A stretch of 37,753 nucleotides of DNA. Source: a virus. Of the stretch, positions 1 through 24,520 are shown one piece after another. Each line of letters begins with the position of its first letter. Within the stretch, counting starts at the first letter, position 1. Both the position numbers and the translations under genes were made by a program. Location: positions 1 through 37,753 of IMG/VR virus record IMGVR_UViG_3300012346_000262. One strand, 5' to 3'. Below the pieces are notes generated by a model that made no database searches, was not told the origin of the DNA, and was given only the letters and a program-made list of their open reading frames with translations.

Positions 1-69
1 CTTGGCATAGTTGCCTCCGGTCATCGTGGCATAGTTGCCACCGGTCATCGTGGCAGAGTCGCCACCGGT
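1..69 (-). repeat. Continuation of the 24-bp coding tandem repeat
   Basis: Same unit as at 37656-37753; units at 22-45 and 46-69. Confidence 0.9.
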
Positions 70-870
70 CAAAACAGATAATGCACCGCCTTGCAAAACG
101 CCTTCATCGCCGCACTCCAGTACAGCGCCGATCACCGCAACATTTTTTGCATTTGGCTCATGCTCGATAAGGTAATCCGCAGCCTCTTTTTTGCCGCCAA
201 CAAAGACTACTTTTCCAGTGGGAAATTTACACTTCCCGCCAAGCATTCGGATAGTATTTGAGGCCACTTCAACAACCAACCATTTTGCATCTGATTGATT
301 GATAAAGTTGCTTGTCGTGTGATCGCCTTGACCATATAGCCAGCCGTGCAAGCCGTTACCGCAATCGCTGTTATCAACCCAATCCGGCGCAGTTGCAATG
401 CCACCCACACCCGGCCAGATAAAGCCGTTTCTGCTGCTCATGTCAGCCGCGCAGCAGCGAAGCACTAAAGACGTAGCTGGCTTAAGGTACTCTTCCCACT
501 CTTCGGCAAAAGAGCAGTTATCTGGAGCGCCGATAAACATAGGCGCAATCTGAGCGTCTGTGTAGCCAGCCAAAACACAGCCAATGCGAGTCACGAAAAA
601 CTCTTGATCTTGATTGTGCTTGGCGTAGTCAACAAAGCGCGTAACCGATGCCTGAATGTCGTCAAGCGGTAAAGCCTTGGCAATAGCTTTGTCTTTGGTA
701 GGGATGGCGTAGCTGTTGCCAGTCATGCCCTCTGAAACGCCGATTTCAGCGCCGTAGTGGTCTTTGGCAGCTCTGGCCGCGCCACCACCATGAATGCCAG
801 CAAGGTTGCTGCCGAACACGAAAACTTGACCGTCTTTTGGCTGTGTGCCGTCTTTGTGGGTTTTGAACAT
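1..870 (-). CDS. N-terminal 290 codons of a 354-aa junction-spanning protein: macro-like 'FGSN..HGGGAA / SYAIPT / IGCVLAGY' domain, a central 'CGNGLHGW' domain, and the start of TGG[DN][SY]A[TK]M octapeptide repeats
   Basis: ATG at 870-868 follows an AGGAGAAACTAA RBS. There is no stop before position 1, which is why the ORF track omits it. It is in frame with ORF 37536..37730 once the 23-nt terminal duplication is collapsed. Hand translation: MFKTHKDGTQPKDGQVFVFGSNLAGIHGGGAARAAKDHYGAEIGVSEGMTGNSYAIPTKD...FFVTRIGCVLAGYTDAQIAPMF...GFIWPGVGGIATAPDWVDNSDCGNGLHGWLYGQGD...VLTGGDSATMTGGNYATMTGGNYAK. Confidence 0.8.
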   Translation of the reverse strand, partial: MFKTHKDGTQPKDGQVFVFGSNLAGIHGGGAARAAKDHYGAEIGVSEGMTGNSYAIPTKDKAIAKALPLDDIQASVTRFVDYAKHNQDQEFFVTRIGCVLAGYTDAQIAPMFIGAPDNCSFAEEWEEYLKPATSLVLRCCAADMSSRNGFIWPGVGGIATAPDWVDNSDCGNGLHGWLYGQGDHTTSNFINQSDAKWLVVEVASNTIRMLGGKCKFPTGKVVFVGGKKEAADYLIEHEPNAKNVAVIGAVLECGDEGVLQGGALSVLTGGDSATMTGGNYATMTGGNYAK

Positions 871-952: not shown

Positions 953-1277
953 ATGTTTTGAAAAGTGCTTTCAGTTTCTGCTGTATCTCTGGAGTCATAG
1001 GCTTGACCGTCTTTGCATCGCGCTCGATCTTTTCCAATGCCGGGTCTTTTGCATCTTTTGGCCTGTCTCTTTTTTGCTTAGGATAAAGGCTTTTCCAGTT
1101 GTTAATCGCTGCGTCTGTCAAAGCCTCGTTAATGTCCCATCCTTCACCGTAGAGCCTCATGCAACGCATAATCATCAGCTTTTGAGCTTGTTGCGTCATG
1201 GGGCTTTTGTTAGCTTTGCGGGCATCAACAAAAGCTGACCATATTTCGGGGTCTATGTAAGACGGTAGAGGTGTCAT
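951..1277 (-). CDS. hypothetical protein (108 aa)
   Basis: ATG overlaps the methyltransferase stop (ATGA). Co-directional with its neighbours; no family recognised. Confidence 0.6.
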   Translation of the reverse strand: MTPLPSYIDPEIWSAFVDARKANKSPMTQQAQKLMIMRCMRLYGEGWDINEALTDAAINNWKSLYPKQKRDRPKDAKDPALEKIERDAKTVKPMTPEIQQKLKALFKT

Positions 1278-2311
1278 AGCTCCTCGACCTCTTCAAATAA
1301 AGCCTCCTGAACAACGCCTTGCCCATGAAAACGATCTTTGGCCATGCTCAAATTGATCTTGGCTTGTTTGTAGTAAGAATCTTTCAATTCAATGCCGATA
1401 GCCTTTCGACCCATAGAAACAGGGCTGTAAACCTCTGAGCCAACCCCCATAAACGGGGTAAAAACCACTTCGCCGGGGTTGCTGTAAAGCTCAATTATCC
1501 GATCAATGACGTCCAGCTGCAAAGGGTGAACGTGCTTTTCGTCGTCCTCTTCTTTGGAGTCGCGGAATGGCAAAACGTTGTCAATCCTAATATCATCCCA
1601 CACGCTAGAGGCGTAGCGCTGCCAGATGTAATGTGATAGTTTGTTGCTTTTTGGGTCTGTGTGGTCATGGTAGGTGTTGTTCAGGTGTTCCCACAGTTGT
1701 TCGGCTGTAAAGTTGCTTTCGTTGGCATTGTTGAAGGCCTGCAAGATGTTAGGCAAAATCGGAGTGGCGCCAGCGTAGTATTTAAGCCCGCATGGGTGCG
1801 TTACCGGGACTGCGTTTTCGCCTTTCTTAGTGAAAATAAGCATGTAGTCAGGCATAGCCGTAAAACACTGTGTAGAGTCCTCCACAATCAATTTATGCAT
1901 CAGACTTTTAACCATCGTGCGCATACGAACCTTTAGCGGCTCTTTCCAGATCGTGATTCTGTTGCGGTACTCAAAGCCATGTTCTTGGTGCATCCGGATG
2001 ATTTCATGGGGGAAATCCCACAGCCTGCAGGAATTGTCAAACACATCGGTACAGTGAACCGCCGTAATGCGCCCGGGTTTGGTAACTCGAGCCATTTCAG
2101 AGATCAGGTAGTTGTATTGATCCAAAAACTGCTCTTTGCTCTCACAATTGGAAAAGTCACGTTCGGAGCTTGAATAGTTGTAAAGCCCTGCGAACGGAGG
2201 GGAATACACCGACAAGTCAACCGAGTTATCCGGCATCGTTGGTAACACCTCCATGCAATCGCTGTTATAGATCGCGTAGTCGGCTGTAATAAATTGGTCT
2301 TTTGCGCTCAT
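1274..2311 (-). CDS. DNA N6-adenine/N4-cytosine methyltransferase (beta-class motif order)
   Basis: SPPF (motif IV) in 'DLSVYSPPFAGLYNY' lies near the N-terminus. An AdoMet-binding 'VVFTPFMGVGSEV' lies near the C-terminus. Confidence 0.85.
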   Translation of the reverse strand: MSAKDQFITADYAIYNSDCMEVLPTMPDNSVDLSVYSPPFAGLYNYSSSERDFSNCESKEQFLDQYNYLISEMARVTKPGRITAVHCTDVFDNSCRLWDFPHEIIRMHQEHGFEYRNRITIWKEPLKVRMRTMVKSLMHKLIVEDSTQCFTAMPDYMLIFTKKGENAVPVTHPCGLKYYAGATPILPNILQAFNNANESNFTAEQLWEHLNNTYHDHTDPKSNKLSHYIWQRYASSVWDDIRIDNVLPFRDSKEEDDEKHVHPLQLDVIDRIIELYSNPGEVVFTPFMGVGSEVYSPVSMGRKAIGIELKDSYYKQAKINLSMAKDRFHGQGVVQEALFEEVEEL

Positions 2312-3678
2312 TAGATAAACTCCGGTAGTTTGATGGATTGATTGAACTCTTTTGTTTTATGCGTGAAATCACGGTTAGCCGCTTGGACTAGATTACCGTA
2401 AAGCTGGATTGCCTTTTGCGTCTTTTGCTCGAGCGCCTCCATTACACGCTCTTGGCCTTCGCTAATTACCATGTCACATACAACCTCGTTTTTCTGGCCA
2501 AAACGCCAGAATCTGCGAATGGCTTGGTAATACTGCTCATAGCTGTACGTGGGGAAAAATACGGTATGGTTACAGTGTTGCCAGTTTAGCCCCATAGAAG
2601 TCATCTTGGCTTTTGTAATCAGTCGTTTTATGTCACCTCGAGCAAAGGACACCAAAATATCCTCTTTCTTGTCAATTGACATACCGCCGATGATTTCCAC
2701 GGCATCGCGGTCTAGGCTGGCCAACAACGCGCTTTCGTCGTTCAGATTGCACCAATAAACCGACGTTTTATCGCTAGCCAGTTGAACGGCCTTTTCGCAG
2801 CGTTCATTTACGGTTAGCTTTTGTTCCTCACGAACCTCTGTAAGCCGCTTGGCAGGCATGGCAAACAATGCCGATTGCCCATCAATACACCATGTAGCGT
2901 CATTGTGTACGATGTGCTTTTTTACGTGTAATGCGGGCAAATCATACCCAGCATCTGAAAAACCTAAATCGCTTGGCTTTTTGACCATAACAGACCATTG
3001 GTTTACCCACGCAAAGAAGTCTTTTTCTGCATGTGGTTTCAGATAGAACTTTTCGCCAATGTTGCGATTGTTGCTATCCACGCTGCCTTGATTGCTCTTA
3101 AAGAACTTTGTCAGCATGTCCATGTAGCCCATGTAACCCAAAGCCTCGGAGCTGTTCCCAAGCTCGATAAAGTCGTTCGGGCTTGGCGTAGCCGTAGAAA
3201 GGAAACGATACGGGACTTTCTTGATAAATGCGACAATGCTATCCCGAGTTTTGCCTTCAAAGTTTTTCAAGATGCTTGATTCGTCCAACATAACGCACTC
3301 AAAATCATCGGGACTTAGCAAGTGCAACCGTTCATAGTTGCATACGACGATCTTCTTTGTAAACTTACCGTCTTTTGTGTGACAAATATCATCTACTCCA
3401 ATTGTCTCTGCCTCATTCAAGAACTGGAAAGCCACGGCAAGCGGCGTAAGAATCAAAACACGCTTATTTGTGTGTCTAATGATGTTCTCAGCGATTGCAA
3501 TCTGAATCAGTGTCTTACCTAGCCCGGTATCAGCAAATACACCGATACGGCCTTTTTTGATCGCCTTTTGGATAATGAATTTCTGAAAATCAAAGCTGCG
3601 TTCTGGAAACCACTTTGCTTCAAAGCCATAGCTAGACAATGAATGCTTTTTTGCCTCTATAAATTCGAGGTACTTCAC
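2311..3678 (-). CDS. SNF2/DEAD-like superfamily-2 helicase
   Basis: Walker A 'FADTGLGKT' and DExx box 'VMLDESSILKN'. GTG start overlaps the MazG stop (GTGA). Confidence 0.8.
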   Translation of the reverse strand: MKYLEFIEAKKHSLSSYGFEAKWFPERSFDFQKFIIQKAIKKGRIGVFADTGLGKTLIQIAIAENIIRHTNKRVLILTPLAVAFQFLNEAETIGVDDICHTKDGKFTKKIVVCNYERLHLLSPDDFECVMLDESSILKNFEGKTRDSIVAFIKKVPYRFLSTATPSPNDFIELGNSSEALGYMGYMDMLTKFFKSNQGSVDSNNRNIGEKFYLKPHAEKDFFAWVNQWSVMVKKPSDLGFSDAGYDLPALHVKKHIVHNDATWCIDGQSALFAMPAKRLTEVREEQKLTVNERCEKAVQLASDKTSVYWCNLNDESALLASLDRDAVEIIGGMSIDKKEDILVSFARGDIKRLITKAKMTSMGLNWQHCNHTVFFPTYSYEQYYQAIRRFWRFGQKNEVVCDMVISEGQERVMEALEQKTQKAIQLYGNLVQAANRDFTHKTKEFNQSIKLPEFI

Positions 3679-11140: not shown

Positions 11141-11412
11141 AGCCGCATTTAAGGCGTGAGTGGTCTAACCTATTTAAGCGCTACATGTGGTTTTGTCGCG
11201 GCGATGGCGCAATGGGGTATGGTGATGACGTTAAAGTAGCGTATTTTGATTGGAAATACGCGCTAAAAAAGCTCATTTCGGCCAAGACTCTATCAGCGCC
11301 TCACGCTTTGACCGCTCACACCCATAAGCGCCAATCCATGCTACAGCCCACAATGCAAGATCACGCGCAGTTGACTCGGAAGGCAGATCAGCCGGTACAG
11401 GGCACTTTGTAA
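11137..11412 (+). CDS. hypothetical protein (91 aa); its 3' 140 nt overlap the convergent o-spanin gene
   Basis: ATGA-coupled start. The C-terminal part may be a fortuitous open frame. Confidence 0.45.
   Translation: MKPHLRREWSNLFKRYMWFCRGDGAMGYGDDVKVAYFDWKYALKKLISAKTLSAPHALTAHTHKRQSMLQPTMQDHAQLTRKADQPVQGTL
11239..11261 (-). terminator. 8-bp hairpin (GCGTATTT-7 nt-AAATACGC) 12 nt downstream of the o-spanin stop; possible end of the late transcript
   Basis: Perfect inverted repeat. The following U-tract is weak (UACUUUAA) and the hairpin lies inside + ORF 11137..11412. Confidence 0.3.
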
Positions 11413-11521
11413 CGAGTGCCACCGGAGGCGGGTCAATCTTCGCGGGCTGTGCTGGCGGCTTTGTTGAGCAACCCAATATCCCCAGCGTCAAGCCGACAAC
11501 TAACAAGGTTTGTGCTTTCAT
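11273..11521 (-). CDS. o-spanin (Rz1-like outer-membrane lipoprotein)
   Basis: Signal sequence and lipobox 'LTLGILGC', with a Pro-rich mature part. The start is embedded in the 3' end of the i-spanin gene. Confidence 0.8.
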   Translation of the reverse strand: MKAQTLLVVGLTLGILGCSTKPPAQPAKIDPPPVALVTKCPVPADLPSESTARDLALWAVAWIGAYGCERSKREALIESWPK

Positions 11522-11768
11522 TGGCTAGCTCCTTTTCAGTGATGGTTAGAAACTCAGTTCGCACGGTTTCGCGGTCTACGTAGCGAATCTCCGCTTTCCT
11601 CGTTGTGTCGCGGTTTGCGTCTTGCTGTGCCCTTGCTAGTCGTGCTGATTCTGCGCGGTCTAGCTCCCATTCTTTTGTTATCGTGGCTTTGCCGGATGTA
11701 TAGGCTTTCCAATGGCTAGCCGCCAATGCTAGGGCAATGATTAGCGCGGCTACGATGCGGAGATTCAT
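11433..11768 (-). CDS. i-spanin (Rz-like)
   Basis: N-terminal TM 'IVAALIIALALAAS', then a charged coiled-coil region. Lies directly after the endolysin gene. Confidence 0.75.
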   Translation of the reverse strand: MNLRIVAALIIALALAASHWKAYTSGKATITKEWELDRAESARLARAQQDANRDTTRKAEIRYVDRETVRTEFLTITEKELANESTNLVSCRLDAGDIGLLNKAASTARED

Positions 11769-12373
11769 CCTAGCGCATCCCCCGCTTTGTCTGTTAGTGC
11801 AATCCTGTGATCTAGGCCGATTGTGCCGCCGTTCACTCTTTTAGACACGCGAACAGTATCGCCCATCATCGCGTCAGGTACTTTTTGCTCCCACCACGCA
11901 ATAGCTGATTTAAGCGCCCATTCAGGCTGTGCGAGTAAATCAGGATCGGTTACTAGGTCAATCCCAAGGGCATCGCCCACGGCTTGATAATTGTCTTTTC
12001 CTGTCACTTGGATAAGCCCGCGCCCGCGATATTTCCAACCATCGCCAAACTCAGTATTACCTAAGCGTCCGTTATATACCTTGTTGGCAATCCTAACTGG
12101 TTGTCGTTCTAGCTCTTTTGCTGAGTCGTTGTTAAACCGTGTTGGCCAAGTCCGAAGCAATGCCGCCGCGCTGTAATTGAGATTCTCTTCAACGTGTTCG
12201 AGCAATCCTGATTCATGCAAGATTTGCCCCAAAAAGTCGTCAATTTCAGAAGCGCCCGCGCTAAATGCTGAGTCTGTTACGTGTGCGCTGAAATGCTCTG
12301 CCCATCTTGCAGCGGTTAGAGGGCGAACGCCGCATTGAATTAGGATATCGTTCCATTGGCTGGGGGTTTTCAT
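11765..12373 (-). CDS. endolysin, glycoside hydrolase family 19 (chitinase-like)
   Basis: 'FLGQILHESGLLEHVEENLNYS' and 'YRGRGLIQVTGKDNY' match GH19 signature motifs. Confidence 0.85.
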   Translation of the reverse strand: MKTPSQWNDILIQCGVRPLTAARWAEHFSAHVTDSAFSAGASEIDDFLGQILHESGLLEHVEENLNYSAAALLRTWPTRFNNDSAKELERQPVRIANKVYNGRLGNTEFGDGWKYRGRGLIQVTGKDNYQAVGDALGIDLVTDPDLLAQPEWALKSAIAWWEQKVPDAMMGDTVRVSKRVNGGTIGLDHRIALTDKAGDALG

Positions 12374-13488
12374 GGTAGCGCTTGTCCGTTTCTTTCAAGG
12401 ATTCTTAGCAATCGTTCGTTGCCGGGAAATACGACAAAATTAGAAGTTCCTTTGCCAGCATTACGTGAGCCTTCGTCTAAATAGCGAATACCGGGAATGC
12501 CGCTATTACGCAACATTTCAGAAAAAGCCGCTGGTTCTGTTTTGCCAAAATTTGTCATTGCATGATGCAAGTCACCGCCTTTTGGAACTACGCCAACATC
12601 CCTGCCCTCGCGCCATGCGTTAATTATTCCAGATGCTTTTGACCCCGGAGCCGTTTTAATATCTGCGCTTCTTGCTATGTTTTGTATAGCGCCTGATTGC
12701 TGAGACAAAGGTAATTCCCAATCAAGCATTCTTGCTATTTGATCGTCTGGGAGGTCTACTTTGTAGAGAGAGCCTTTGCCTTTATCAAAGCTTGCCTTTT
12801 CGCTTATTTTTTGAATATCTGACCACGCTTTTTTTGTTTCTGCATATGTGGCATCAGCGGCACGCATTCTGTCCTTATATTGCCTAAGGTTTTTCAAATA
12901 CACCAATTCAAGTTCGCTCGCGGGCTTTATTTCACTTAGCGGCAAGCCATTAAACCTAAAAGAACTCTCACCAATAATATCATCAGCGTAACTCTTTGCC
13001 ACATCCGGCGATTCAGCCAAATACAAACCATGTCCGTAAGCCTGCGCACCTTCACCCGTTCCAATCTTGCTTGCATCGAACTTGTCAAATTTATGCGGTG
13101 AGCCGTGCCACACAATAGCGCCGGTTTGCGGGTTCATTGTGCGTGGTGCAGCCGCATTCTCCCCCATCTGACGCAATCCCTTAGCCACAGCCGCCGCGCC
13201 TTGCTGAGTGCCCGCCATCGGAGCAAGTAGCCCCAAAGTCTCGCCGGCCACCTTGGGAAGTCCATCCGGCACATCGGCCAACAATCCCGCTTGTCTAGCC
13301 CACTCAGAGCCGCCTAGAGCGTTCTCAGGTACTGGGATTCTCGCTCTACGTAGTAACCACGCAATCGCGTCAACAGGAGCCGTTACAGAGCTTGCAGCGG
13401 TATTGCTCATGCTCTGCCCTAGCTGGCCTGCGTTCGTGCCAAGATCGCGCCTAAATTGCGGGTCGCGGAATGCTTCAAGTAGTCCCAT
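12370..13488 (-). CDS. 372-aa protein with a PARP-like (H-Y-x) ADP-ribosyltransferase signature
   Basis: 'VWHGSPHKFDKFDASKIGTGEGAQAYGHGLYLAESPDVAKSYA' parallels PARP1 'LWHGSR..NF..I...G...(n)..GYMFGKGIYFAD..SKSANY'. The late strand 'SNFVVFP' aligns with PARP 'YNEYIVY'. RBS GAGGGTTAAAAATG. Confidence 0.5.
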   Translation of the reverse strand: MGLLEAFRDPQFRRDLGTNAGQLGQSMSNTAASSVTAPVDAIAWLLRRARIPVPENALGGSEWARQAGLLADVPDGLPKVAGETLGLLAPMAGTQQGAAAVAKGLRQMGENAAAPRTMNPQTGAIVWHGSPHKFDKFDASKIGTGEGAQAYGHGLYLAESPDVAKSYADDIIGESSFRFNGLPLSEIKPASELELVYLKNLRQYKDRMRAADATYAETKKAWSDIQKISEKASFDKGKGSLYKVDLPDDQIARMLDWELPLSQQSGAIQNIARSADIKTAPGSKASGIINAWREGRDVGVVPKGGDLHHAMTNFGKTEPAAFSEMLRNSGIPGIRYLDEGSRNAGKGTSNFVVFPGNERLLRILERNGQALP

Positions 13489-13753
13489 TTTTAACCCTCG
13501 CGTATTTCATGAATGTTGCGAATGAATAAAGAGCAATCGAAAGCGCTTCTAAGGCAAGCCCTGATATTTGAGCAATCCCGAAGATGTATATTTGAAGTGT
13601 AACGACAAACCCACCGAAAGCAACTAGACACAATGAAAAGCATTGAAACATCGTATCTTTGAAGCGGTCAGAGATAAGACCAATAATAGCCATAGCCGAT
13701 GTAAGGCCAGAGCTTGCCAAGATAATCCAGCAGAAAAAGTCAATATCGCTCAT
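13475..13753 (-). CDS. membrane protein, 3 predicted TM segments (holin/antiholin candidate, 92 aa)
   Basis: ATG 13753 overlaps the upstream stop. Hydrophobic segments 'FFCWIILASSGLTSAMAIIGLI', 'CFSLCLVAFGGFVVTLQIYIF' and 'GLALEALSIALYSF'. Confidence 0.5.
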   Translation of the reverse strand: MSDIDFFCWIILASSGLTSAMAIIGLISDRFKDTMFQCFSLCLVAFGGFVVTLQIYIFGIAQISGLALEALSIALYSFATFMKYARVKNGTT

Positions 13754-14064
13754 TTGACCCCCAACCACAAACGCACTTTAGCCACAAACGCACTCGCTAA
13801 GTCTTTTGTATCAATACTTGAAATGCCTTCAAATATCTTGCGTATGAACAACATCGAAAGTAAACCAACTACGAAAGCCGTAGCGTTTTCATACTTTAAC
13901 AACCGAAAATAATCAACCACAGGCGCAGTGAATAGCTGAGAACACACAACGCCACCCACGCCCGAAACAAACCTATCCCAGCCCGTTGTTTTTGCAAGCC
14001 AGACACCTAGAGCAGATCCAGATGCACCAGCGGCTAGTTTATGCAAGAATTCGCCTTCTATCAT
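13750..14064 (-). CDS. putative holin (104 aa, multi-TM)
   Basis: Hydrophobic segments with a charged C-terminus. First gene after the tail fibre gene, upstream of the endolysin and spanins. Confidence 0.5.
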   Translation of the reverse strand: MIEGEFLHKLAAGASGSALGVWLAKTTGWDRFVSGVGGVVCSQLFTAPVVDYFRLLKYENATAFVVGLLSMLFIRKIFEGISSIDTKDLASAFVAKVRLWLGVK

Positions 14065-20559: not shown

Positions 20560-22016
20560 TCTGTCCCCTCTGGCACGATGACAGCACCATAGGCCAACAC
20601 CTTGGCGTTACCAGTGAAGTCAAACTTAGCGCGATGCCAGCGGCCTGATTGAAGTACATCAAACTTGCCATCATTCAAAACGCCGGTTTGCCGGGTTGTC
20701 AGTGAATCGCCTATCGTTGGTTTTGTAAACGTGGTGATGTTCGCCGTCGTTGGAATGTTATCCGGTGCGTATCTGACACGTACCTTTGTCAAGCAAGAAT
20801 ATCTATCATCGTCACCAGCATCGCCCGTTGTAAACGATGAGGCACCAGAAGCGCCCGTAAGTAGTTGGAGTTGATGCGATGTATTAAAGGCAGCGAGCGC
20901 CTTTGCGCCTGCGTTCCATATCGGAGAGTCGAAGGTATAAGTACTTAGACCATCAATCGTTGCAGAGATAGCGCTTAGACCGTCAATCGTCACGCCCGAT
21001 GCGATGTAGTTCAGCGCCGATTGAATGTTGATTGTGACGCGCCCCCATTGTTTTGATAGGGTATGCCACACCAAAGCCTGATCTAGCGTTGTCGAGTTTG
21101 TGGATGGATAAAACACCCATACAAGTTGATTTTGTCGATCATAGACACACTGAGTACGGTACAAATAGTTCGGGTTTGAGTTGTTATAGAACCACTGTCT
21201 TACAGACCCAGTTCCTAGCGGTGTAGGGGTTGAGCCTGAGAACAGCCAGAAGTTATCCGTACCGACAACAAAGTGACCGCCGCCAATGTCGCATAAGGCA
21301 TCTTGACCGATACAGCCAGCCTCACCACCTTGCACTTGTCGCCAATCCCACACACCGGGAGCGCCGACAAACTGCCCTAGATAGATTGCCTTTTCTTTGT
21401 ACGCAATCGCATATTCGCCCAATCGAGCGCCAGCCGTAATCCGTCCAGGCGTGGAGACCAATCGCCCAGTTGTGGCAAGCGTCGCTACATCTGGTGTCCA
21501 ATCGGTGTCATCAAACGAGGCGCAGCACCACCATCTATCGGGGGATGTGCCGTAAGTACCATCTACCGTATTTAGCGCCATGACAAACGAGCCGACGCTA
21601 AAAATGATCTTTGCCTTCGGAGCGCCTGAAATATCCGAAAAAGCGCCAGAGCCGTTAGAGCGCTGGATGGTGTCTGCGAGATTCGACGCTAACGTAGCAT
21701 CACCAAATTGAGCGAATGACCATCTTGTATCCACGCCTCCGGTGTAGTTTCCTACTCTCGCAACATCAGTCCACGAACCACTTGAAAGCTCATACAGTTT
21801 TGTCGTCGTGCCTGCGAATGTCCTGCGCGAATCGTCTAGCTTAGTCACCACAGCAGCACCAATGCAAGCCGCAGCTAAGGCAGGTACGTTGCTAGGAGTT
21901 TGCCCAGTTGGAGCGCTTTTCATGCCCTGTTCATAGGGAATGAAGTTAGAGCAATCCGTGATTATCCCTGCCGCATTAGGCTCTGCGTCTGGGGAAAATC
22001 CTAGGAGTTTATCCAT
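20556..22016 (-). CDS. tail hub/adaptor-sized structural protein (486 aa), positional and size analogue of P22 gp10
   Basis: Position after the coat and adaptor genes, plus beta-rich sequence. No motif-level identification. Confidence 0.45.
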   Translation of the reverse strand: MDKLLGFSPDAEPNAAGIITDCSNFIPYEQGMKSAPTGQTPSNVPALAAACIGAAVVTKLDDSRRTFAGTTTKLYELSSGSWTDVARVGNYTGGVDTRWSFAQFGDATLASNLADTIQRSNGSGAFSDISGAPKAKIIFSVGSFVMALNTVDGTYGTSPDRWWCCASFDDTDWTPDVATLATTGRLVSTPGRITAGARLGEYAIAYKEKAIYLGQFVGAPGVWDWRQVQGGEAGCIGQDALCDIGGGHFVVGTDNFWLFSGSTPTPLGTGSVRQWFYNNSNPNYLYRTQCVYDRQNQLVWVFYPSTNSTTLDQALVWHTLSKQWGRVTINIQSALNYIASGVTIDGLSAISATIDGLSTYTFDSPIWNAGAKALAAFNTSHQLQLLTGASGASSFTTGDAGDDDRYSCLTKVRVRYAPDNIPTTANITTFTKPTIGDSLTTRQTGVLNDGKFDVLQSGRWHRAKFDFTGNAKVLAYGAVIVPEGTE

Positions 22017-22648
22017 TAAGCACCTGCGGAGACGCGGCCACCGTTAAACGAAGCATCGGCATATTGCATCATGCGTTTGTGCGGGTCGATATTCCCATAC
22101 TGAGCATTGATAGCTTGAATGCCTCGCTGATAGTATTTGTCCCAAACATCAATGCGGGAATCATTCATTAGGTACGGAGCGGCCTCTAGCAAGGTAGCAT
22201 AAAGCAGGGTGTCTGGAGCGTTCAAGATATACCAGTTCGTCGCGTTTGAATCACTGAGCGCGGTTTCCTTCTTGAAGTAGGTTGTGGCCAGATTACCGCC
22301 TGCTGCCCACGTTGGAGCGACTTGGATGTTAGTTCCGAGCATCGTATAGACCCAAGGCACACCAGTGCCTGAGAGTCGGTCGATTGTGTCAGGAGGCACG
22401 TATTGAAGCTCTGCGCCGTTAGCGATAGCCACGTTCACAAGCGATAGAAAGCCAGTAGGTAGCGCTACTGTGTTACCGCCTGCGCTCACCGTTAGGTTTG
22501 TCGTTGCCAATAGCTGAGATATGCGTAAGTCCCGCGCCATTCTCCATTCAGCCATTGTGATGAAGTCGGGGATATTCGCTGTCAAGTCGTTGCGGTGAAG
22601 CCACGTTGCGGCAGCGGTTTTAAGCTCTGAATAGTTGGTGATTGCCAT
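22016..22648 (-). CDS. head-completion/adaptor-like protein, paralogue B (210 aa)
   Basis: N-terminus 'MAITNYSELKTAAATWLHRNDLTANIPDFITMAE' parallels that of the neighbouring gene. Confidence 0.5.
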   Translation of the reverse strand: MAITNYSELKTAAATWLHRNDLTANIPDFITMAEWRMARDLRISQLLATTNLTVSAGGNTVALPTGFLSLVNVAIANGAELQYVPPDTIDRLSGTGVPWVYTMLGTNIQVAPTWAAGGNLATTYFKKETALSDSNATNWYILNAPDTLLYATLLEAAPYLMNDSRIDVWDKYYQRGIQAINAQYGNIDPHKRMMQYADASFNGGRVSAGA

Positions 22649-22650
22649 TA

Positions 22651-23298
22651 TTAGCCTCTTAGGATGTTAAATGATGTGCGGTCTAGTGATGCGGGAATGT
22701 CTGTACGTAGCACAGCGTTGGCGTTTTGATTCCAGTCTGATTTATTCGCACCGTCCAAAGATGACATAAACAAATCACGCCATGTTGGAATTCTTGCGTC
22801 ACTGATATATGGCGCAGCGTTAGCCAAAGCACCATACAAATACACATCAGGGAAAAACGTCAGTATGTCGTTTGTAGTGTTTGAATCGCTCAGAGCAGTG
22901 ATGCGGCCTTGATAGACAATGGAGACTGTATAGGCGCGATCAGGAACAGGCCAGAAGTAGAACAGTGAGCCAATGACAGTAGATAGAACGGGCTGGCCGG
23001 GATTTCTGTCCTCTGAGCGCTTTCTATAGCTGTCAGGTGTCGTTACCTCCACGTCATCGTATGGAGATACGCTTGTTATCTTGACGTTCTTAACGCTCAG
23101 AAGGTCACTAGGGGCTGTGACTGTCTCTGTATTTGTAGATGTTGCAATCGTTCCGATCTTTTCAAGGAAACGAGAATCCAAACGCTGATTGATCTGCGAT
23201 TCTGCTAACTGAATCATGTCGGGTACGTTAGCGGTCAAGTCTGCGCGTTGCAGAATTGAAACCACCGCAGACCGCAAATCAGAGTAATTGGTAATCAT
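22651..23298 (-). CDS. head-completion/adaptor-like protein, paralogue A (215 aa)
   Basis: N-terminus 'MITNYSDLRSAVVSILQRADLTANVPDMIQLAE'. Both paralogues also share 'TALSDSN.TN' and 'YLYGALANAAPY/LLYATLLEAAPY'. Confidence 0.5.
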   Translation of the reverse strand: MITNYSDLRSAVVSILQRADLTANVPDMIQLAESQINQRLDSRFLEKIGTIATSTNTETVTAPSDLLSVKNVKITSVSPYDDVEVTTPDSYRKRSEDRNPGQPVLSTVIGSLFYFWPVPDRAYTVSIVYQGRITALSDSNTTNDILTFFPDVYLYGALANAAPYISDARIPTWRDLFMSSLDGANKSDWNQNANAVLRTDIPASLDRTSFNILRG

Positions 23299-23350: not shown

Positions 23351-24520
23351 TTAGTTGTTGTGGTAGCGAACTGCAAACTGTGGACGCAAGGTCTTGTAGC
23401 CGTACAAAATATCAACACGGCAAGGGAGTTTGTCGTTGTTGATATCGTACTGGCGAACCACACGCATAGAGATGCCGTCAAGGGTTTGACGCGAAGAGAA
23501 GTCCACGCCTTGAGGCATAACCAAATCAGCCGTTGCAAACGCGAAGGCTTCTTTTTGGAACAGCAACGAGGTTTGAACCGTGGTGGATGCCGTGCCTTGG
23601 AACGTGATAGCAGCGTTATCGGCTGGGCCAGCGTTGACGTTCTGAGTTGCGCCAGATGTCACGATTGCAGGGCTGATAGACCACGCGGTAGTGGTGGCGC
23701 CAGAGCCAACAGTGAACTGTTGCAGAACGCCGGTAGAGACTTTCGTCTCAGGGTGAACAGCAAACACGTTTGCAATGGTGAACACATCACCAGCCGAAGG
23801 AGCGCCAGTGCCGGTATCCACGTTCAACGTAGAGCCGGTTTGCGAACCGCCTTGGATGAGGTAGTTCACAGCAGCGCTGCGAGCGTGAGCAGGCATCAAG
23901 GTGTTTTCAGACCAATCAAAGCCAGCAGCGCGACCCATGTAGCCCTCTTTGTACTGATCTGCAAGGCTCTTGGCATCTTGGAACAGCGTCTTTGTGTCTT
24001 TCACCACATCAGCCATTGCCAGAGAGTCCATCAAAGCGGTGCGATCATTAGCAGGGGCTAGGGCGCGTTGCAGCAGTACGCGAGCGTCCAATGCTTTGTT
24101 ATAGGTAGCAGCAGAGCCGCCATTCCAAACAGAGTTGTAAACGTCTTTGTACATGCTCAGAGCATCGGCTTCGACGTTTGCAGCCAAAACAGTCATTGCG
24201 GGTTCAATGATGCGCTTGCTGAAGTCGTCAATCGAGAGGGTAAGCTCTGCGGTAGAAAAGTTCATACCGACGTGCTTTTGCGTCGAGACTTGCATGGTCA
24301 CGCTAGATTCGGTCGTATCTTGCGTGGTCAGTGTCGCGCCGTTGGTCACGGTGTATTGGTTAGGCAAGCGAATTTTCAGCGAATCGCCGATTTTCGCGCC
24401 GGACTTGGCATAAGAATCGTCATATTGACGAACGATATTGCCAACGAAGTTGAGTTTTTGATGCAGGATTCGGAGAGATTCGCGAGTCACTGCGGTAGGG
24501 GTAAGTAGAGTATTAGGCAT
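23351..24520 (-). CDS. major capsid protein, P22 coat (gp5)-like family
   Basis: N-terminus 'LLTPTAVTRESLRILHQKLNFVGNIVRQYDDSYAKSGAKIGDSLKIRLPNQY' is typical of P22-coat-family proteins. It follows the scaffold gene and is followed by a terminator. Confidence 0.8.
   Translation of the reverse strand: MPNTLLTPTAVTRESLRILHQKLNFVGNIVRQYDDSYAKSGAKIGDSLKIRLPNQYTVTNGATLTTQDTTESSVTMQVSTQKHVGMNFSTAELTLSIDDFSKRIIEPAMTVLAANVEADALSMYKDVYNSVWNGGSAATYNKALDARVLLQRALAPANDRTALMDSLAMADVVKDTKTLFQDAKSLADQYKEGYMGRAAGFDWSENTLMPAHARSAAVNYLIQGGSQTGSTLNVDTGTGAPSAGDVFTIANVFAVHPETKVSTGVLQQFTVGSGATTTAWSISPAIVTSGATQNVNAGPADNAAITFQGTASTTVQTSLLFQKEAFAFATADLVMPQGVDFSSRQTLDGISMRVVRQYDINNDKLPCRVDILYGYKTLRPQFAVRYHNN

What the first reader, a model, noticed from the sequence alone, without database searches (positions are those of the whole stretch)
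12370..13488. PARP-like ADP-ribosyltransferase signature in a 372-aa gene wedged into the lysis cassette
Residues 126-168 read VWHGSPHKFDKFDASKIGTGEGAQAYGHGLYLAESPDVAKSYA. This mirrors the NAD+-binding core of H-Y-E ARTs: PARP1 has LWHGS...F..I, then G(K)G(I)YFA, then KS..Y, with His862 and Tyr896 at the equivalent positions.

Near the C-terminus, 'TSNFVVFP' aligns with the PARP 'YNEYIVY' strand but has Asn where the catalytic Glu would be. 'RYLDEGS', 14 residues upstream, is another candidate for the acidic residue. Similar 'WHGS...YG.G.Y.A' modules occur in phage 'polyvalent' proteins (ART-PolyVal); this is from my memory of that family.

The context is unusual. The gene is translationally coupled between two holin-like membrane proteins and the GH19 endolysin with its spanins, not placed among early genes or internal virion proteins. 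The same genome also encodes a macro-like domain (1..870), raising the possibility of an ADP-ribosylation writer/eraser pair.
Basis: partly seen in the sequence, partly recalled or inferred. Interest (0 to 1): 0.7.

Follow-up and report, generated by a model that had tools for sequence, protein, structure and literature searches.

The report
Virion-type ART-like phage effector gene
The gene encodes a divergent ADP-ribosyltransferase-like domain of the kind phages pack into their particles, joined to a previously unannotated N-terminal "carrier" domain that in related phages carries many other payload domains; its place next to the lysis genes is one of several slots it occupies, so there is no evidence for a lysis role.

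Summary
A 372-aa ORF lies on the minus strand at 12370-13488, the quoted motif is at residues 126-168, and the gene overlaps a holin pair upstream and a GH19 endolysin with spanins downstream.

The ART reading is supported at family level:
- The domain is a divergent relative of ART-PolyVal (Pfam E 3e-6, below the curated cut-off; hhalign probability 95-98.6%).
- Foldseek matches predicted viral ART-PolyVal structures (E 4e-19).
- His128, Tyr156 and Tyr167 are near-invariant.
- The usual acidic position holds an invariant Asn350, and the family's invariant Asp is Pro332. Catalysis is therefore unproven.

The context reading is only partly right. In relatives the gene sits after the portal, the capsid protein, the adaptor or the nozzle, and sometimes beside an endolysin. 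It is always in the late operon. The Sulfitobacter phage phiGT1 homologue was detected in virions by mass spectrometry.

Residues 1-~118 plus a conserved linker form a carrier module. In other phages this module is fused to canonical ARTs, metallopeptidases, GNATs, LPD domains and about 20 unknown payload types.

The "macro-like" partner is an A1S_2505-family protein with no Macro match and no conserved linkage to this gene.

Most likely this is a late-made, virion-delivered NAD+-binding effector: a new variant of a known kind.

The parts
12370..13488 (-). Whole gene, 372 aa: N-terminal carrier domain, linker, and an insert-bearing ART-PolyVal-like domain
   Evidence: ORF; more than 7000 homologues; single copy in the window
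13135..13488 (-). Residues 1-118: all-helical N-terminal 'carrier' domain with no match in Pfam, NCBIfam or PDB sequences and none over these residues in PHROGs. It is always N-terminal and is fused to many different payload domains in other phages
13120..13164 (-). Residues 109-123: conserved linker (ENAAAPRTMNPQTGA) at the carrier/payload junction. It is repeated before the second payload in P0003
12985..13119 (-). Residues 124-168: strand 1 (IVWHGS, His128), a near-invariant loop (PHKFDKFD..KIGTGEGAQAYGHG), strand 2 (LYLA, Tyr156) and a helix ending at Tyr167. This is the NAD-pocket half of the ART fold and the only part the Pfam model matches
12775..12984 (-). Residues 169-238: helical insert 1, variable in sequence and length, absent from compact ART-PolyVal domains
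12697..12774 (-). Residues 239-264: strand 3 block LYKVDLPD..IARMLDW. It aligns with the canonical 'V.PVYL.I.NP' strand
12505..12696 (-). Residues 265-328: helical insert 2, variable
12373..12504 (-). Residues 329-372: strands 4-6. GIPGIRYLD has Pro332 in place of the canonical invariant Asp, and Asp338 is invariant. A GGSRxxGxG loop follows. SNFVVF has Asn350 in the position of the catalytic acid. The block ends in ILERNG
13750..14064 (-). Holin-like protein, 104 aa (neighbour)
   Evidence: phrog_2359 E 7e-10; one hydrophobic segment
13475..13768 (-). Small membrane protein (97-aa ORF; the likely start is the ATG at 13753, giving 92 aa). It overlaps the target start by 14 nt
11765..12373 (-). 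GH19 endolysin, 202 aa. Its ATG overlaps the target stop (ATGA)
11273..11768 (-). Rz-like i-spanin (11433-11768) with an embedded Rz1-like o-spanin (11273-11521)

Best explanation
The gene encodes a two-part late protein.

Residues ~124-372 are a divergent member of the ART-PolyVal (Tox-ART-HYD2-related) branch of the ADP-ribosyltransferase fold. This is the domain that phages and conjugative elements place in 'polyvalent' proteins delivered with the DNA. Here it is expanded by two helical inserts.

The NAD+-pocket residues are kept: His128-Gly-Ser, Tyr156 and Tyr167. The position of the catalytic acid is an invariant Asn350, with an invariant Asp338 at the other end of the preceding loop.

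Residues 1-~118 plus a conserved linker are a carrier module. Related podoviruses fuse it to many alternative payload domains.

The most likely mechanism has three steps:
1. The protein is made with the virion proteins from the late operon.
2. It is incorporated into the particle through the carrier domain and enters the next host cell with the DNA.
3. There it binds NAD+ and mono-ADP-ribosylates (or otherwise acts with NAD+ on) a host target, as T4 Alt does.

What is shown:
- Homology and motif conservation.
- The modular architecture.
- Late-operon placement.
- Virion presence of one homologue.

What is inferred:
- Packaging of this particular protein.
- Injection into the host.
- NAD+ use.
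- The identity of the target.

The position between holins and endolysin is one of several interchangeable slots at or within the late module. There is no evidence that it signals a role in lysis.
For: Family assignment:
- Pfam ART-PolyVal E 3e-6 for the target, and 2e-6 to 9e-5 for 10 homologues, always over strands 1-2.
- hhalign against canonical ART-PolyVal gives probability 94.8%, E 5e-8.
- With deeper profiles the untrimmed domain gives 97.5%, E 8e-12, and the insert-trimmed domain gives 98.6%, E 8.6e-16, collinear over the whole domain. The C-terminal half alone gives E 0.0015.

Fold:
- The AF2 model of residues 117-372 has pLDDT 80.6 and pTM 0.72, with six core strands in ART order.
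- Foldseek against BFVD finds 28 hits with E <= 1e-3. The top hits are named ART-PolyVal-like (E 4e-19). A compact 191-aa PolyVal ART matches at E 1e-6 with TM 0.60 normalised to the target.
- The top Foldseek hits in the PDB are ARTs: RES toxin, cholix toxin and exotoxin A.

Conservation in 80 IMG/VR loci:
- His128 76/80, Gly129/Ser130 80/80, Tyr156 80/80, Tyr167 79/80.
- Asp338 78/78, Asn350 78/78.

Polyvalent and virion links:
- The same domain is embedded in giant polyvalent proteins next to head or internal-virion genes: Tunturi_5 gp273 (Nudix + ARTs + GNAT), vir555_54 and LS06-MD07.
- phiGT1 gp5, a solo homologue (hmmsearch E 2e-49), was found in purified virions with 12 spectra and SC/MW 0.29, above the authors' contamination level of 0.2 (PMC10386132 Table S3).

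Context:
- Wherever a structural marker was recognised (about half of the IMG/VR loci), the gene is on the strand of, and within or at the edge of, the structural/late module.

Carrier module:
- The N-domain occurs only N-terminally.
- In 119 representatives it is followed by ART-PolyVal (40), LPD23 (7), GNAT (3), LPD37 (1), a metallopeptidase (1) or domains with no Pfam match. These fall into 29 payload clusters.
- In IMG/VR, 27 of 68 N-domain ORFs carry this ART type; the rest carry other payloads or are truncated (5). They occupy the same late-module slots.

Literature: Iyer et al. 2017 and 2022 predict head packaging and injection for ARTs of this family.
Against: - The Pfam score (28.5 bits) is below the curated cut-off (31.2), and the Pfam model matches only strands 1-2.
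- No PDB Foldseek hit reaches E < 0.1.
- The canonical family's invariant Asp ([YH]DG, 124/125) aligns with Pro332, and the usual Glu/Gln position is Asn350. Catalytic competence is therefore uncertain.
- No ART-PolyVal domain has been characterised biochemically in the literature I could search.
- Virion presence is shown only for a 35%-identical homologue that lacks this N-domain, and at low abundance.
- Injection into the host is not shown for any member.
- In this genome the gene is coupled to lysis genes, not to head or tail genes.
Confidence: 0.58

Rival explanations
1. A pseudo-enzyme or structural protein. The ART fold is kept as a scaffold or as an NAD+/ADP-ribose-binding module, for example a minor head or ejection protein or a sensor, without transferase activity.
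For: - Asn350 replaces the acid at the third triad position, and Pro332 replaces the Asp that is invariant in canonical ART-PolyVal.
- The phiGT1 homologue is a low-abundance virion component annotated only as 'head module'.
- The two large helical inserts could serve structural contacts.
Against: - The NAD-pocket residues (His-Gly-Ser, Tyr156, Tyr167), the 25-residue loop between strands 1 and 2, Asn350 and Asp338 are invariant across sequences only 45-50% identical overall. This is not the relaxation expected of a dead site.
- Asn occurs at this position in 8 of 123 Pfam-positive ART-PolyVal domains, and Gln in 19.
- From established knowledge (not tested here), human mono-ART PARPs with H-Y-I/L/Y triads are active.
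- The carrier module carries clearly enzymatic payloads such as HExxH peptidases and GNATs.
Confidence: 0.2
2. A late-acting cytoplasmic enzyme that belongs functionally to the lysis programme. It might shut down host metabolism, deplete NAD+, or modify a lysis regulator just before holin triggering. It would be co-translated with the holins and endolysin.
For: - Overlapping reading frames link holin, membrane protein, target, endolysin and spanin.
- The same holin->X->GH19 arrangement is found in L020 at 55% identity.
- Endolysin adjacency recurs in L055, L068, L084 and L088 and in L156, where the payload is a canonical ART.
Against: - Endolysin-adjacent positions are a minority. Most relatives place the gene after the portal, between capsid protein and adaptor, or after the adaptor, the nozzle or the ~95-aa gene that follows it, kilobases from any lysis gene.
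- The protein has no signal peptide or hydrophobic segment.
- The lysis genes next to it are of different types (GH19, GH108), so there is no co-evolving partner.
- A homologue is in virions.
- The lysis cassette is simply the 3' end of the late operon.
Confidence: 0.12
3. The writer half of an ADP-ribosylation writer/eraser pair, with the 'macro-like' protein at 1..870 as the eraser.
For: Both genes are in one genome, 11.5 kb apart.
Against: - The 1..870 ORF matches the NCBIfam A1S_2505 phage non-structural family (E 1.5e-42), phrog_2072 (unknown function) and Pfam DUF7666. It has no Macro match in Pfam or in PDB sequences.
- It lies in the DNA-metabolism module, next to a methylase and a helicase.
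- No homologue of it was found within 10 kb of the gene in 87 other loci.
Confidence: 0.04

Closest known systems
ART-PolyVal (Pfam PF18760; the 'N4-ART' / Tox-ART-HYD2-related ARTs of polyvalent proteins, Iyer et al. 2017, PMC5512222)
   Same: - Homologous over the whole domain (hhalign up to 98.6%, E 8.6e-16).
- Shares His in strand 1, Tyr in strand 2, the F..FD loop and the second Tyr.
- The same domain type is found inside polyvalent proteins and in head modules.
- Close relatives in UniProt/BFVD are already labelled 'ART-PolyVal-like domain-containing protein'.
   Different: - It scores below the Pfam cut-off, and the Pfam model matches only strands 1-2.
- It has two helical inserts of about 70 and 64 residues.
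- The invariant Asp of [YH]DG is replaced by Pro332.
- Asn350 stands where canonical members mostly have Glu or Gln.
- The C-terminal QIKSAxGN motif is replaced by ILERNG.
- It is a solo payload on a new N-terminal domain, not part of a giant multi-domain protein.
T4 Alt (a head-packaged, injected ADP-ribosyltransferase)
   Same: Proposed logic only: made late, packaged, delivered with the DNA, modifies host proteins. This is the model Iyer et al. use for this family.
   Different: Alt belongs to the R-S-E (Alt/VIP2) clade, not the H-Y-x clade. There is no sequence relationship. Alt's packaging and injection have been shown experimentally; here they are inferred.
MuF-anchored polymorphic effectors/toxins of phage heads (cited in PMC9503650 and PMC5512222)
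   Same: The architecture follows the same logic: a conserved N-terminal head-associated module followed by interchangeable C-terminal effector domains, encoded in the morphogenesis module.
   Different: The N-domain has no match to MuF or to any other Pfam, NCBIfam or PDB entry, and no PHROGs match covers it. It is about 118 aa and all-helical. Its role in the virion has not been tested.
PARP catalytic domain / diphtheria-toxin-group ARTs (H-Y-E)
   Same: The HGS, G.Y.A and Y-x10-Y elements are shared. Canonical ART-PolyVal profiles pull out PARP10/15/4 and exotoxin A as the best PDB sequence hits. Cholix toxin, exotoxin A and RES toxin are the best Foldseek hits.
   Different: All of these matches are sub-significant (E >= 0.08). 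There is no catalytic Glu, no PARP helical regulatory domain and no toxin translocation domains.

Membership tests
ART superfamily, H-Y-[EDQ] clade | His in an 'HG[ST]' motif at the end of strand 1 | tested here: met
   His128-Gly-Ser. His in 76/80 IMG/VR relatives (Gln in 4) and invariant in 120 database homologues. It aligns with the canonical His.
ART superfamily, H-Y-[EDQ] clade | Tyr in strand 2 (G.Y[FL]A) and a second aromatic residue about 11 positions later | tested here: met
   Tyr156 80/80 and Tyr167 79/80. Both align with canonical Y/F columns.
ART superfamily, H-Y-[EDQ] clade | Glu/Asp/Gln at the start of the catalytic strand ('strand 5') | tested here: not met
   The aligned residue is Asn350, invariant in 78/78 and 120/120. 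Asn is a minority state (8/123) in Pfam-positive ART-PolyVal domains.
ART superfamily | ART fold shown by comparison with solved structures | tested here: inconclusive
   The top PDB Foldseek hits are ARTs (RES toxin, cholix toxin, exotoxin A), but the best E is 0.11 and TM about 0.5 normalised to the target. Matches to predicted viral ART-PolyVal structures are significant (E 4e-19 to 1e-6).
ART superfamily | Binds NAD+ and transfers or hydrolyses ADP-ribose | not testable with these tools
   Needs biochemistry.
Pfam PF18760 ART-PolyVal | Score at or above the curated gathering threshold (31.2 bits) | tested here: not met
   The target scores 28.5 bits (E 3e-6). Ten homologues score 23.7-29.1 bits. 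Only model positions 8-~50(-92) are matched.
Pfam PF18760 ART-PolyVal | Profile-level homology to bona fide members across the domain | tested here: met
   hhalign 94.8-98.6%, E 5e-8 to 8.6e-16, collinear. The C-terminal half alone gives E 0.0015.
Pfam PF18760 ART-PolyVal (Iyer et al. 2017 definition: H, Y, and D in strand 5) | Conserved Asp ([YH]DG, 124/125 in my canonical set) | tested here: not met
   It aligns with Pro332 (P/R/K/L in the polyvalent-embedded versions). An invariant Asp338 lies six residues later, at the other end of the strand. Which canonical residue Iyer et al. meant by 'D in strand 5' could not be checked; their alignment is not held.
Polyvalent proteins (Iyer et al. 2017) | Two to 15 unrelated effector domains in one polypeptide of a phage or conjugative element | tested here: not met
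   The target has one payload plus a carrier. Relatives with two payloads exist: P0003, P0222, P0232, L135. The same ART type is embedded in true polyvalent proteins.
Virion-packaged effector | Physical presence in purified virions | tested here: inconclusive
   The evidence comes from the literature, not from a test here, and for a homologue only: phiGT1 gp5 with 12 spectra and SC/MW 0.29 (PMC10386132 Table S3). This protein itself cannot be tested with these tools.
MuF-type head-anchored polymorphic toxins | N-terminal MuF (Phage_Mu_F) domain | tested here: not met
   No Pfam, NCBIfam or PDB match, and no PHROGs match over residues 1-120. The resemblance is in architecture only.
Macro domain (for the proposed eraser at 1..870) | Match to a Macro family or structure | tested here: not met
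   The only matches are NCBIfam A1S_2505_Nterm, phrog_2072 and DUF7666.

The most novel reading that the evidence does not exclude
The ~118-aa N-terminal domain plus its 'AP.T[LM]N.Q.G' linker may define an undescribed cargo-loading system of podoviruses with SU10-type adaptors and portals and SU10- or P22-type capsid proteins. In this reading a single conserved carrier docks interchangeable effector domains into the virion for co-injection with the DNA. The cargo includes this insert-bearing H-Y-N ART, canonical ARTs, zincin peptidases, GNATs, LPD23/37 and about 20 unannotated domain types. The H-Y-N/Asp338 active site may then represent a distinct catalytic solution, or a distinct substrate class, within the ART superfamily.
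Probability: 0.35. Interest if true: 0.65.

Novelty: new variant of a known kind. Interest (0 to 1): 0.45.

Why it matters
ARTs of the polyvalent-protein type are predicted to be among the commonest host-modifying enzymes that phages inject, yet I found no biochemical characterisation of any of them.

This family has several features that make it a practical entry point:
- It is very abundant in metagenomes: more than 7000 clusters at 90% identity.
- The protein is small and soluble-looking, and it stands alone.
- It has a sharply defined set of invariant residues to mutate.
- Its carrier/payload architecture could be used to ask how short-tailed phages load and deliver effector proteins.

The finding also warns against reading function from position. 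A gene translationally coupled into a lysis cassette here is, across its family, a mobile late-operon cargo gene.

Tried and rejected
- Near-identical DNA in GenBank phages: none. tblastn found only five distant phage hits.
- Sequence searches of the PDB with the protein and with the family profile gave only chance-level hits, such as cysteine synthase and citrate synthase.
- NCBIfam: no match for the target.
- A word-indexed search with one canonical ART-PolyVal domain returned a single hit and largely wasted a search. It was replaced by tblastn against phages plus a profile search.
- hhalign of the untrimmed small alignments covered only strands 1-2. The mapping of the C-terminal half needed insert-trimmed and deeper profiles, and on its own it reaches only E ~1e-3.
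- Residue-level structural superposition was not possible because model coordinates and Foldseek alignments are not exposed. The Asn350 and Asp338 assignments therefore rest on profile alignment and predicted secondary structure.
- The review by Aravind et al. 2015 on ART active sites is not held.
- 'Macro-like' neighbour: Pfam, PHROGs, NCBIfam and PDB sequence searches gave no Macro link. A literature search for A1S_2505 was uninformative.
- N-domain against PDB sequences: nothing.
- Second copy of either domain in the window: none.
- The idea that Glu339 of RYLDEGS is the catalytic acid was rejected. It is Gly in most homologues.
Full report
**1. The observation**

The window carries a 372-aa ATG-initiated ORF at 12370-13488 on the minus strand. 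'TSNFVVFP' starts at residue 348 and 'RYLDEGS' at 335.

On the same strand, in order of transcription, lie:
- a 432-aa fibre-like protein;
- a 104-aa protein matching holin phrog_2359 (E 7e-10);
- a 97-aa protein with two or three hydrophobic segments;
- the target;
- a 202-aa GH19 endolysin (phrog_181, E 1e-61; Pfam Glyco_hydro_19);
- an Rz-like spanin with an embedded Rz1-like lipoprotein.

The holin stop overlaps an internal ATG of the 97-aa ORF as ATGA. The upstream ORF overlaps the target start by 14 nt, with a GAGGG site before the ATG. The target/endolysin and endolysin/spanin junctions are both ATGA.

**2. Is it an ADP-ribosyltransferase-like domain?**

Library and profile evidence:
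- Pfam gives ART-PolyVal (PF18760) at E 3e-6 and 28.5 bits, below the curated 31.2-bit cut-off. DUF3990, named as an ART-clan family in PMC7955679, scores E 2e-3.
- Ten homologues behave the same way, and the Pfam model only ever matches its first third, strands 1-2.
- I assembled canonical ART-PolyVal domains from phage polyvalent proteins and from a profile search.
- Profile-profile comparison with the target family gives probability 94.8%, E 5e-8 with small alignments.
- With deeper profiles the untrimmed domain gives 97.5%, E 8e-12. With the two inserts cut out the result is 98.6%, E 8.6e-16, collinear over the whole canonical domain.
- The C-terminal half on its own reaches only E 0.0015.

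Structural evidence:
- An AlphaFold2 model of residues 117-372 built with 120 sequences has pLDDT 80.6 and pTM 0.72. It has six core strands in the order expected for a minimal ART fold, plus two helical inserts.
- Against the PDB its best Foldseek matches are ARTs (RES toxin, cholix toxin, exotoxin A). None is significant; the best E is 0.11.
- Against predicted viral structures there are 28 hits with E <= 1e-3. The top hits are proteins UniProt already calls 'ART-PolyVal-like domain-containing protein' (E 4e-19). A compact 191-aa 'PolyVal ADP-Ribosyltransferase' matches at E 1e-6, TM 0.60 normalised to the target.

The refutation criterion 'no ART-fold hit' is not met.

**3. The active site**

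Across 120 database homologues (45-74% identical over this domain) and 80 independent IMG/VR loci, the following are invariant or nearly so:

| Residue | IMG/VR count |
|---|---|
| His128 | 76/80 (Gln in 4) |
| Gly129, Ser130 | 80/80 |
| Tyr156 | 80/80 |
| Tyr167 | 79/80 |
| Asp338 | 78/78 |
| Asn350 | 78/78 |

The whole loop PHKFDKFD..KIGTGEGAQAYGHG is also conserved.

- His128 and Tyr156 align with the canonical His and Tyr.
- Tyr167 lies 11 residues after Tyr156. That is the spacing of the second NAD-site tyrosine in PARP1 (Tyr896/Tyr907). The PARP1 numbering is from my own knowledge, not from a tool.

In 136 canonical domains the column at the start of the '.[YIV]V[AV]F' strand reads E 57, Q 19, N 8, H 6, D 6, I 5, L 5. 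A separate Asp in '[YH]DG' is invariant, 124 of 125.

The target family aligns Asn350 with the first column and Pro332 with the second. By analogy with 'YDS...PS[IL]FV[IV]F' in mono-ART PARPs and 'LDAITG...RLETILGW' in exotoxin A, the first column is the classical catalytic-Glu position. Those sequences are recalled from memory, so this is a lead and not a test.

Asp338 sits at the end of the strand that precedes the loop leading to Asn350. Glu339 of 'RYLDEGS' is Gly in most homologues.

Conclusion: the NAD+-pocket half is intact and under strong constraint. The acid is replaced in a way that occurs, rarely, in bona fide family members. Catalysis is plausible but unproven.

**4. Where the domain occurs**

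The family is very large: 7058 clusters with E <= 1e-3 among the 8000 candidates scored. It is almost absent from cultured phages; tblastn found five hits. Three of those hits are giant polyvalent proteins that carry this same insert-bearing domain:
- Tunturiibacter phage Tunturi_5 gp273, 1489 aa, with Nudix, three ART-PolyVal stretches and GNAT, next to a minor head protein;
- vir555_54, 1974 aa, between an internal virion protein and a tail protein;
- a protein of more than 3000 aa in LS06-2018-MD07, near an internal virion protein (the adjacent gene is a hypothetical protein).

A fourth hit is a solo 387-aa protein, gp5 of Sulfitobacter phage phiGT1, encoded after the portal. Its profile match is E 2e-49.

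The phiGT1 structural study detected gp5 in purified virions with 12 spectra and SC/MW 0.29. The authors attribute contaminants to SC/MW below 0.2 (PMC10386132, Table S3).

**5. Genomic context across relatives**

With seven look-ups of encoding contigs and 80 IMG/VR loci, the gene is on the strand of the structural genes wherever a structural marker was recognised (about half of the IMG/VR loci), but its slot varies:
- after adaptor-nozzle-p96 (L001, L004, L005, L021);
- directly after the adaptor (L023);
- after the portal and a 157-aa gene (L022);
- between capsid protein and adaptor, beside a radical-SAM gene (L002, L077);
- about 1.7 kb upstream of the portal, in many short forms;
- beside an endolysin (L055, L068, L084, L088).

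The exact arrangement of the window (holin-like, small protein, X, GH19) recurs in L020, whose protein P0003 is 55% identical.

The lysis-cassette position is thus real and is shared by a sub-lineage, but it is a minority state. The gene behaves as a mobile cassette of the late operon. The protein has no signal peptide or hydrophobic segment.

**6. The N-terminal domain is a carrier**

Residues 1-~118 are predicted to be helical. They match nothing in Pfam, NCBIfam or PDB sequences, and no PHROGs match covers them.

An exhaustive HMMER search found 418 representatives at 50% clustering. In the 150 best that were listed, the domain is at the N-terminus.

Reading those proteins shows a conserved junction, '...ENAAAP.T[LM]N.Q.G'. 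Completely different C-terminal domains follow it. Pfam on 119 of them finds:

| Payload | Proteins |
|---|---|
| ART-PolyVal | 40 |
| LPD23 | 7 |
| GNAT | 3 |
| LPD37 | 1 |
| Metallopeptidase | 1 |

The rest have no match at E <= 1e-3. The payloads fall into 29 sequence clusters.

In IMG/VR contigs, 27 of 68 N-domain ORFs carry the target-type ART. Five carry canonical ARTs (one of them alongside the target type). Four carry an HExxH domain, five an 'SDHxK' domain and four an 'RSRFAAFDP' domain. Nineteen carry other domains, and five are too short or truncated to classify. These genes occupy the same set of late-module slots, including fibre->X->GH19 in L156.

P0003 repeats the linker before a second payload.

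This is the architecture of polymorphic, virion-anchored effectors such as MuF-toxins and polyvalent proteins, but with an unannotated carrier.

**7. The proposed macro partner**

The ORF at 1..870 is on the minus strand and runs off the contig start. The contig ends share a 23-nt repeat. Its N-terminus matches NCBIfam 'A1S_2505 family phage non-structural protein' (E 1.5e-42) and phrog_2072 (unknown function). Its middle part matches DUF7666. No Macro match appears in Pfam or PDB sequences.

It lies with a DNA methylase and a helicase. No homologue of it was found within 10 kb of the ART-like gene in 87 other loci. The writer/eraser idea is not supported, although the fold of that protein was not modelled.

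**8. Verdict**

The gene is a divergent, insert-bearing ART-PolyVal-type domain on a modular carrier. It is most probably a late-made, virion-delivered, NAD+-binding effector.

- The ART assignment is already implicit in public annotation. The database record for this very protein lists PF18760, and its relatives are labelled ART-PolyVal-like.
- New here are the carrier/payload architecture, the H-Y-N plus Asp338 site with loss of the canonical Asp, and the demonstration that the lysis-cassette position is only one of several slots.
- Nothing biochemical is known for any member.
- I rate it a new variant of a known kind, of moderate interest.

Noticed in passing
window 1-870 (minus strand) and window ends: The A1S_2505-family + DUF7666 ORF ends in 'TGG..A.MTGG' repeats and runs off the contig start. 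The first and last 23 nt of the window are identical and the ends share this repeat. The contig is probably a circularly closed or permuted genome whose junction falls inside a repetitive coding region.
   Followed up: partly
window 22016-22648 and 22651-23298 (minus strand): Two tandem paralogues both match Pfam SU10_adaptor (E 2e-33 and 9e-30). The capsid protein (23351-24520) is of the P22 coat type, not the SU10 type, so the head-tail module is mosaic.
   Followed up: no
L020 8001-9650 (P0003, 549 aa): In the relative that shares the holin->X->GH19 context, the carrier linker 'NAAAPRTMNPQ.G' is repeated after the ART domain and is followed by a second payload ('HSGSKAGPSSY...SGHSKG' domain). 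That payload is also found alone on the same carrier in other phages.
   Followed up: partly
L002 3811-8286 and L077: In one lineage the ART-like gene is flanked, inside the capsid-adaptor interval, by a TPR protein, a radical-SAM/SPASM enzyme and a methyltransferase-like gene. This is an unusual set of enzymes for a structural module.
   Followed up: no
four IMG/VR relatives; P0137: A small sub-group has Gln instead of His128, with changes at Phe134, Phe137, Ile142 and Gly143 in the same number (4) of relatives. P0137 also has an insertion of about 35 residues in the strand 1-strand 2 loop and keeps Tyr156, Asp338 and Asn350. This is a natural 'H128Q' variant worth comparing.
   Followed up: no
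L071-L074, L079, L082, L083, L086, L091, L092, L094-L096, L100, L103: Many relatives in which the tblastn match did not extend into the N-terminal carrier (matches start at query residue ~56-126) place the gene 1.7-2.6 kb upstream of the portal. The gene is therefore before the presumed terminase gene, at the very start of the late module. L096 is an exception: its match spans residues 2-371.
   Followed up: no
L007 (Tunturi_5 gp273) residues ~285-420: Read by eye in the sequence printed, a further degenerate ART-like stretch in this polyvalent protein also has Asn in the 'TNYAVF' strand. Asn at the third triad position may therefore have arisen or spread more than once.
   Followed up: partly
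window 1274-3678 (minus strand): An N6/N4 DNA methylase and an SNF2/DEAD-type helicase lie next to the A1S_2505 gene in the non-structural module.
   Followed up: no
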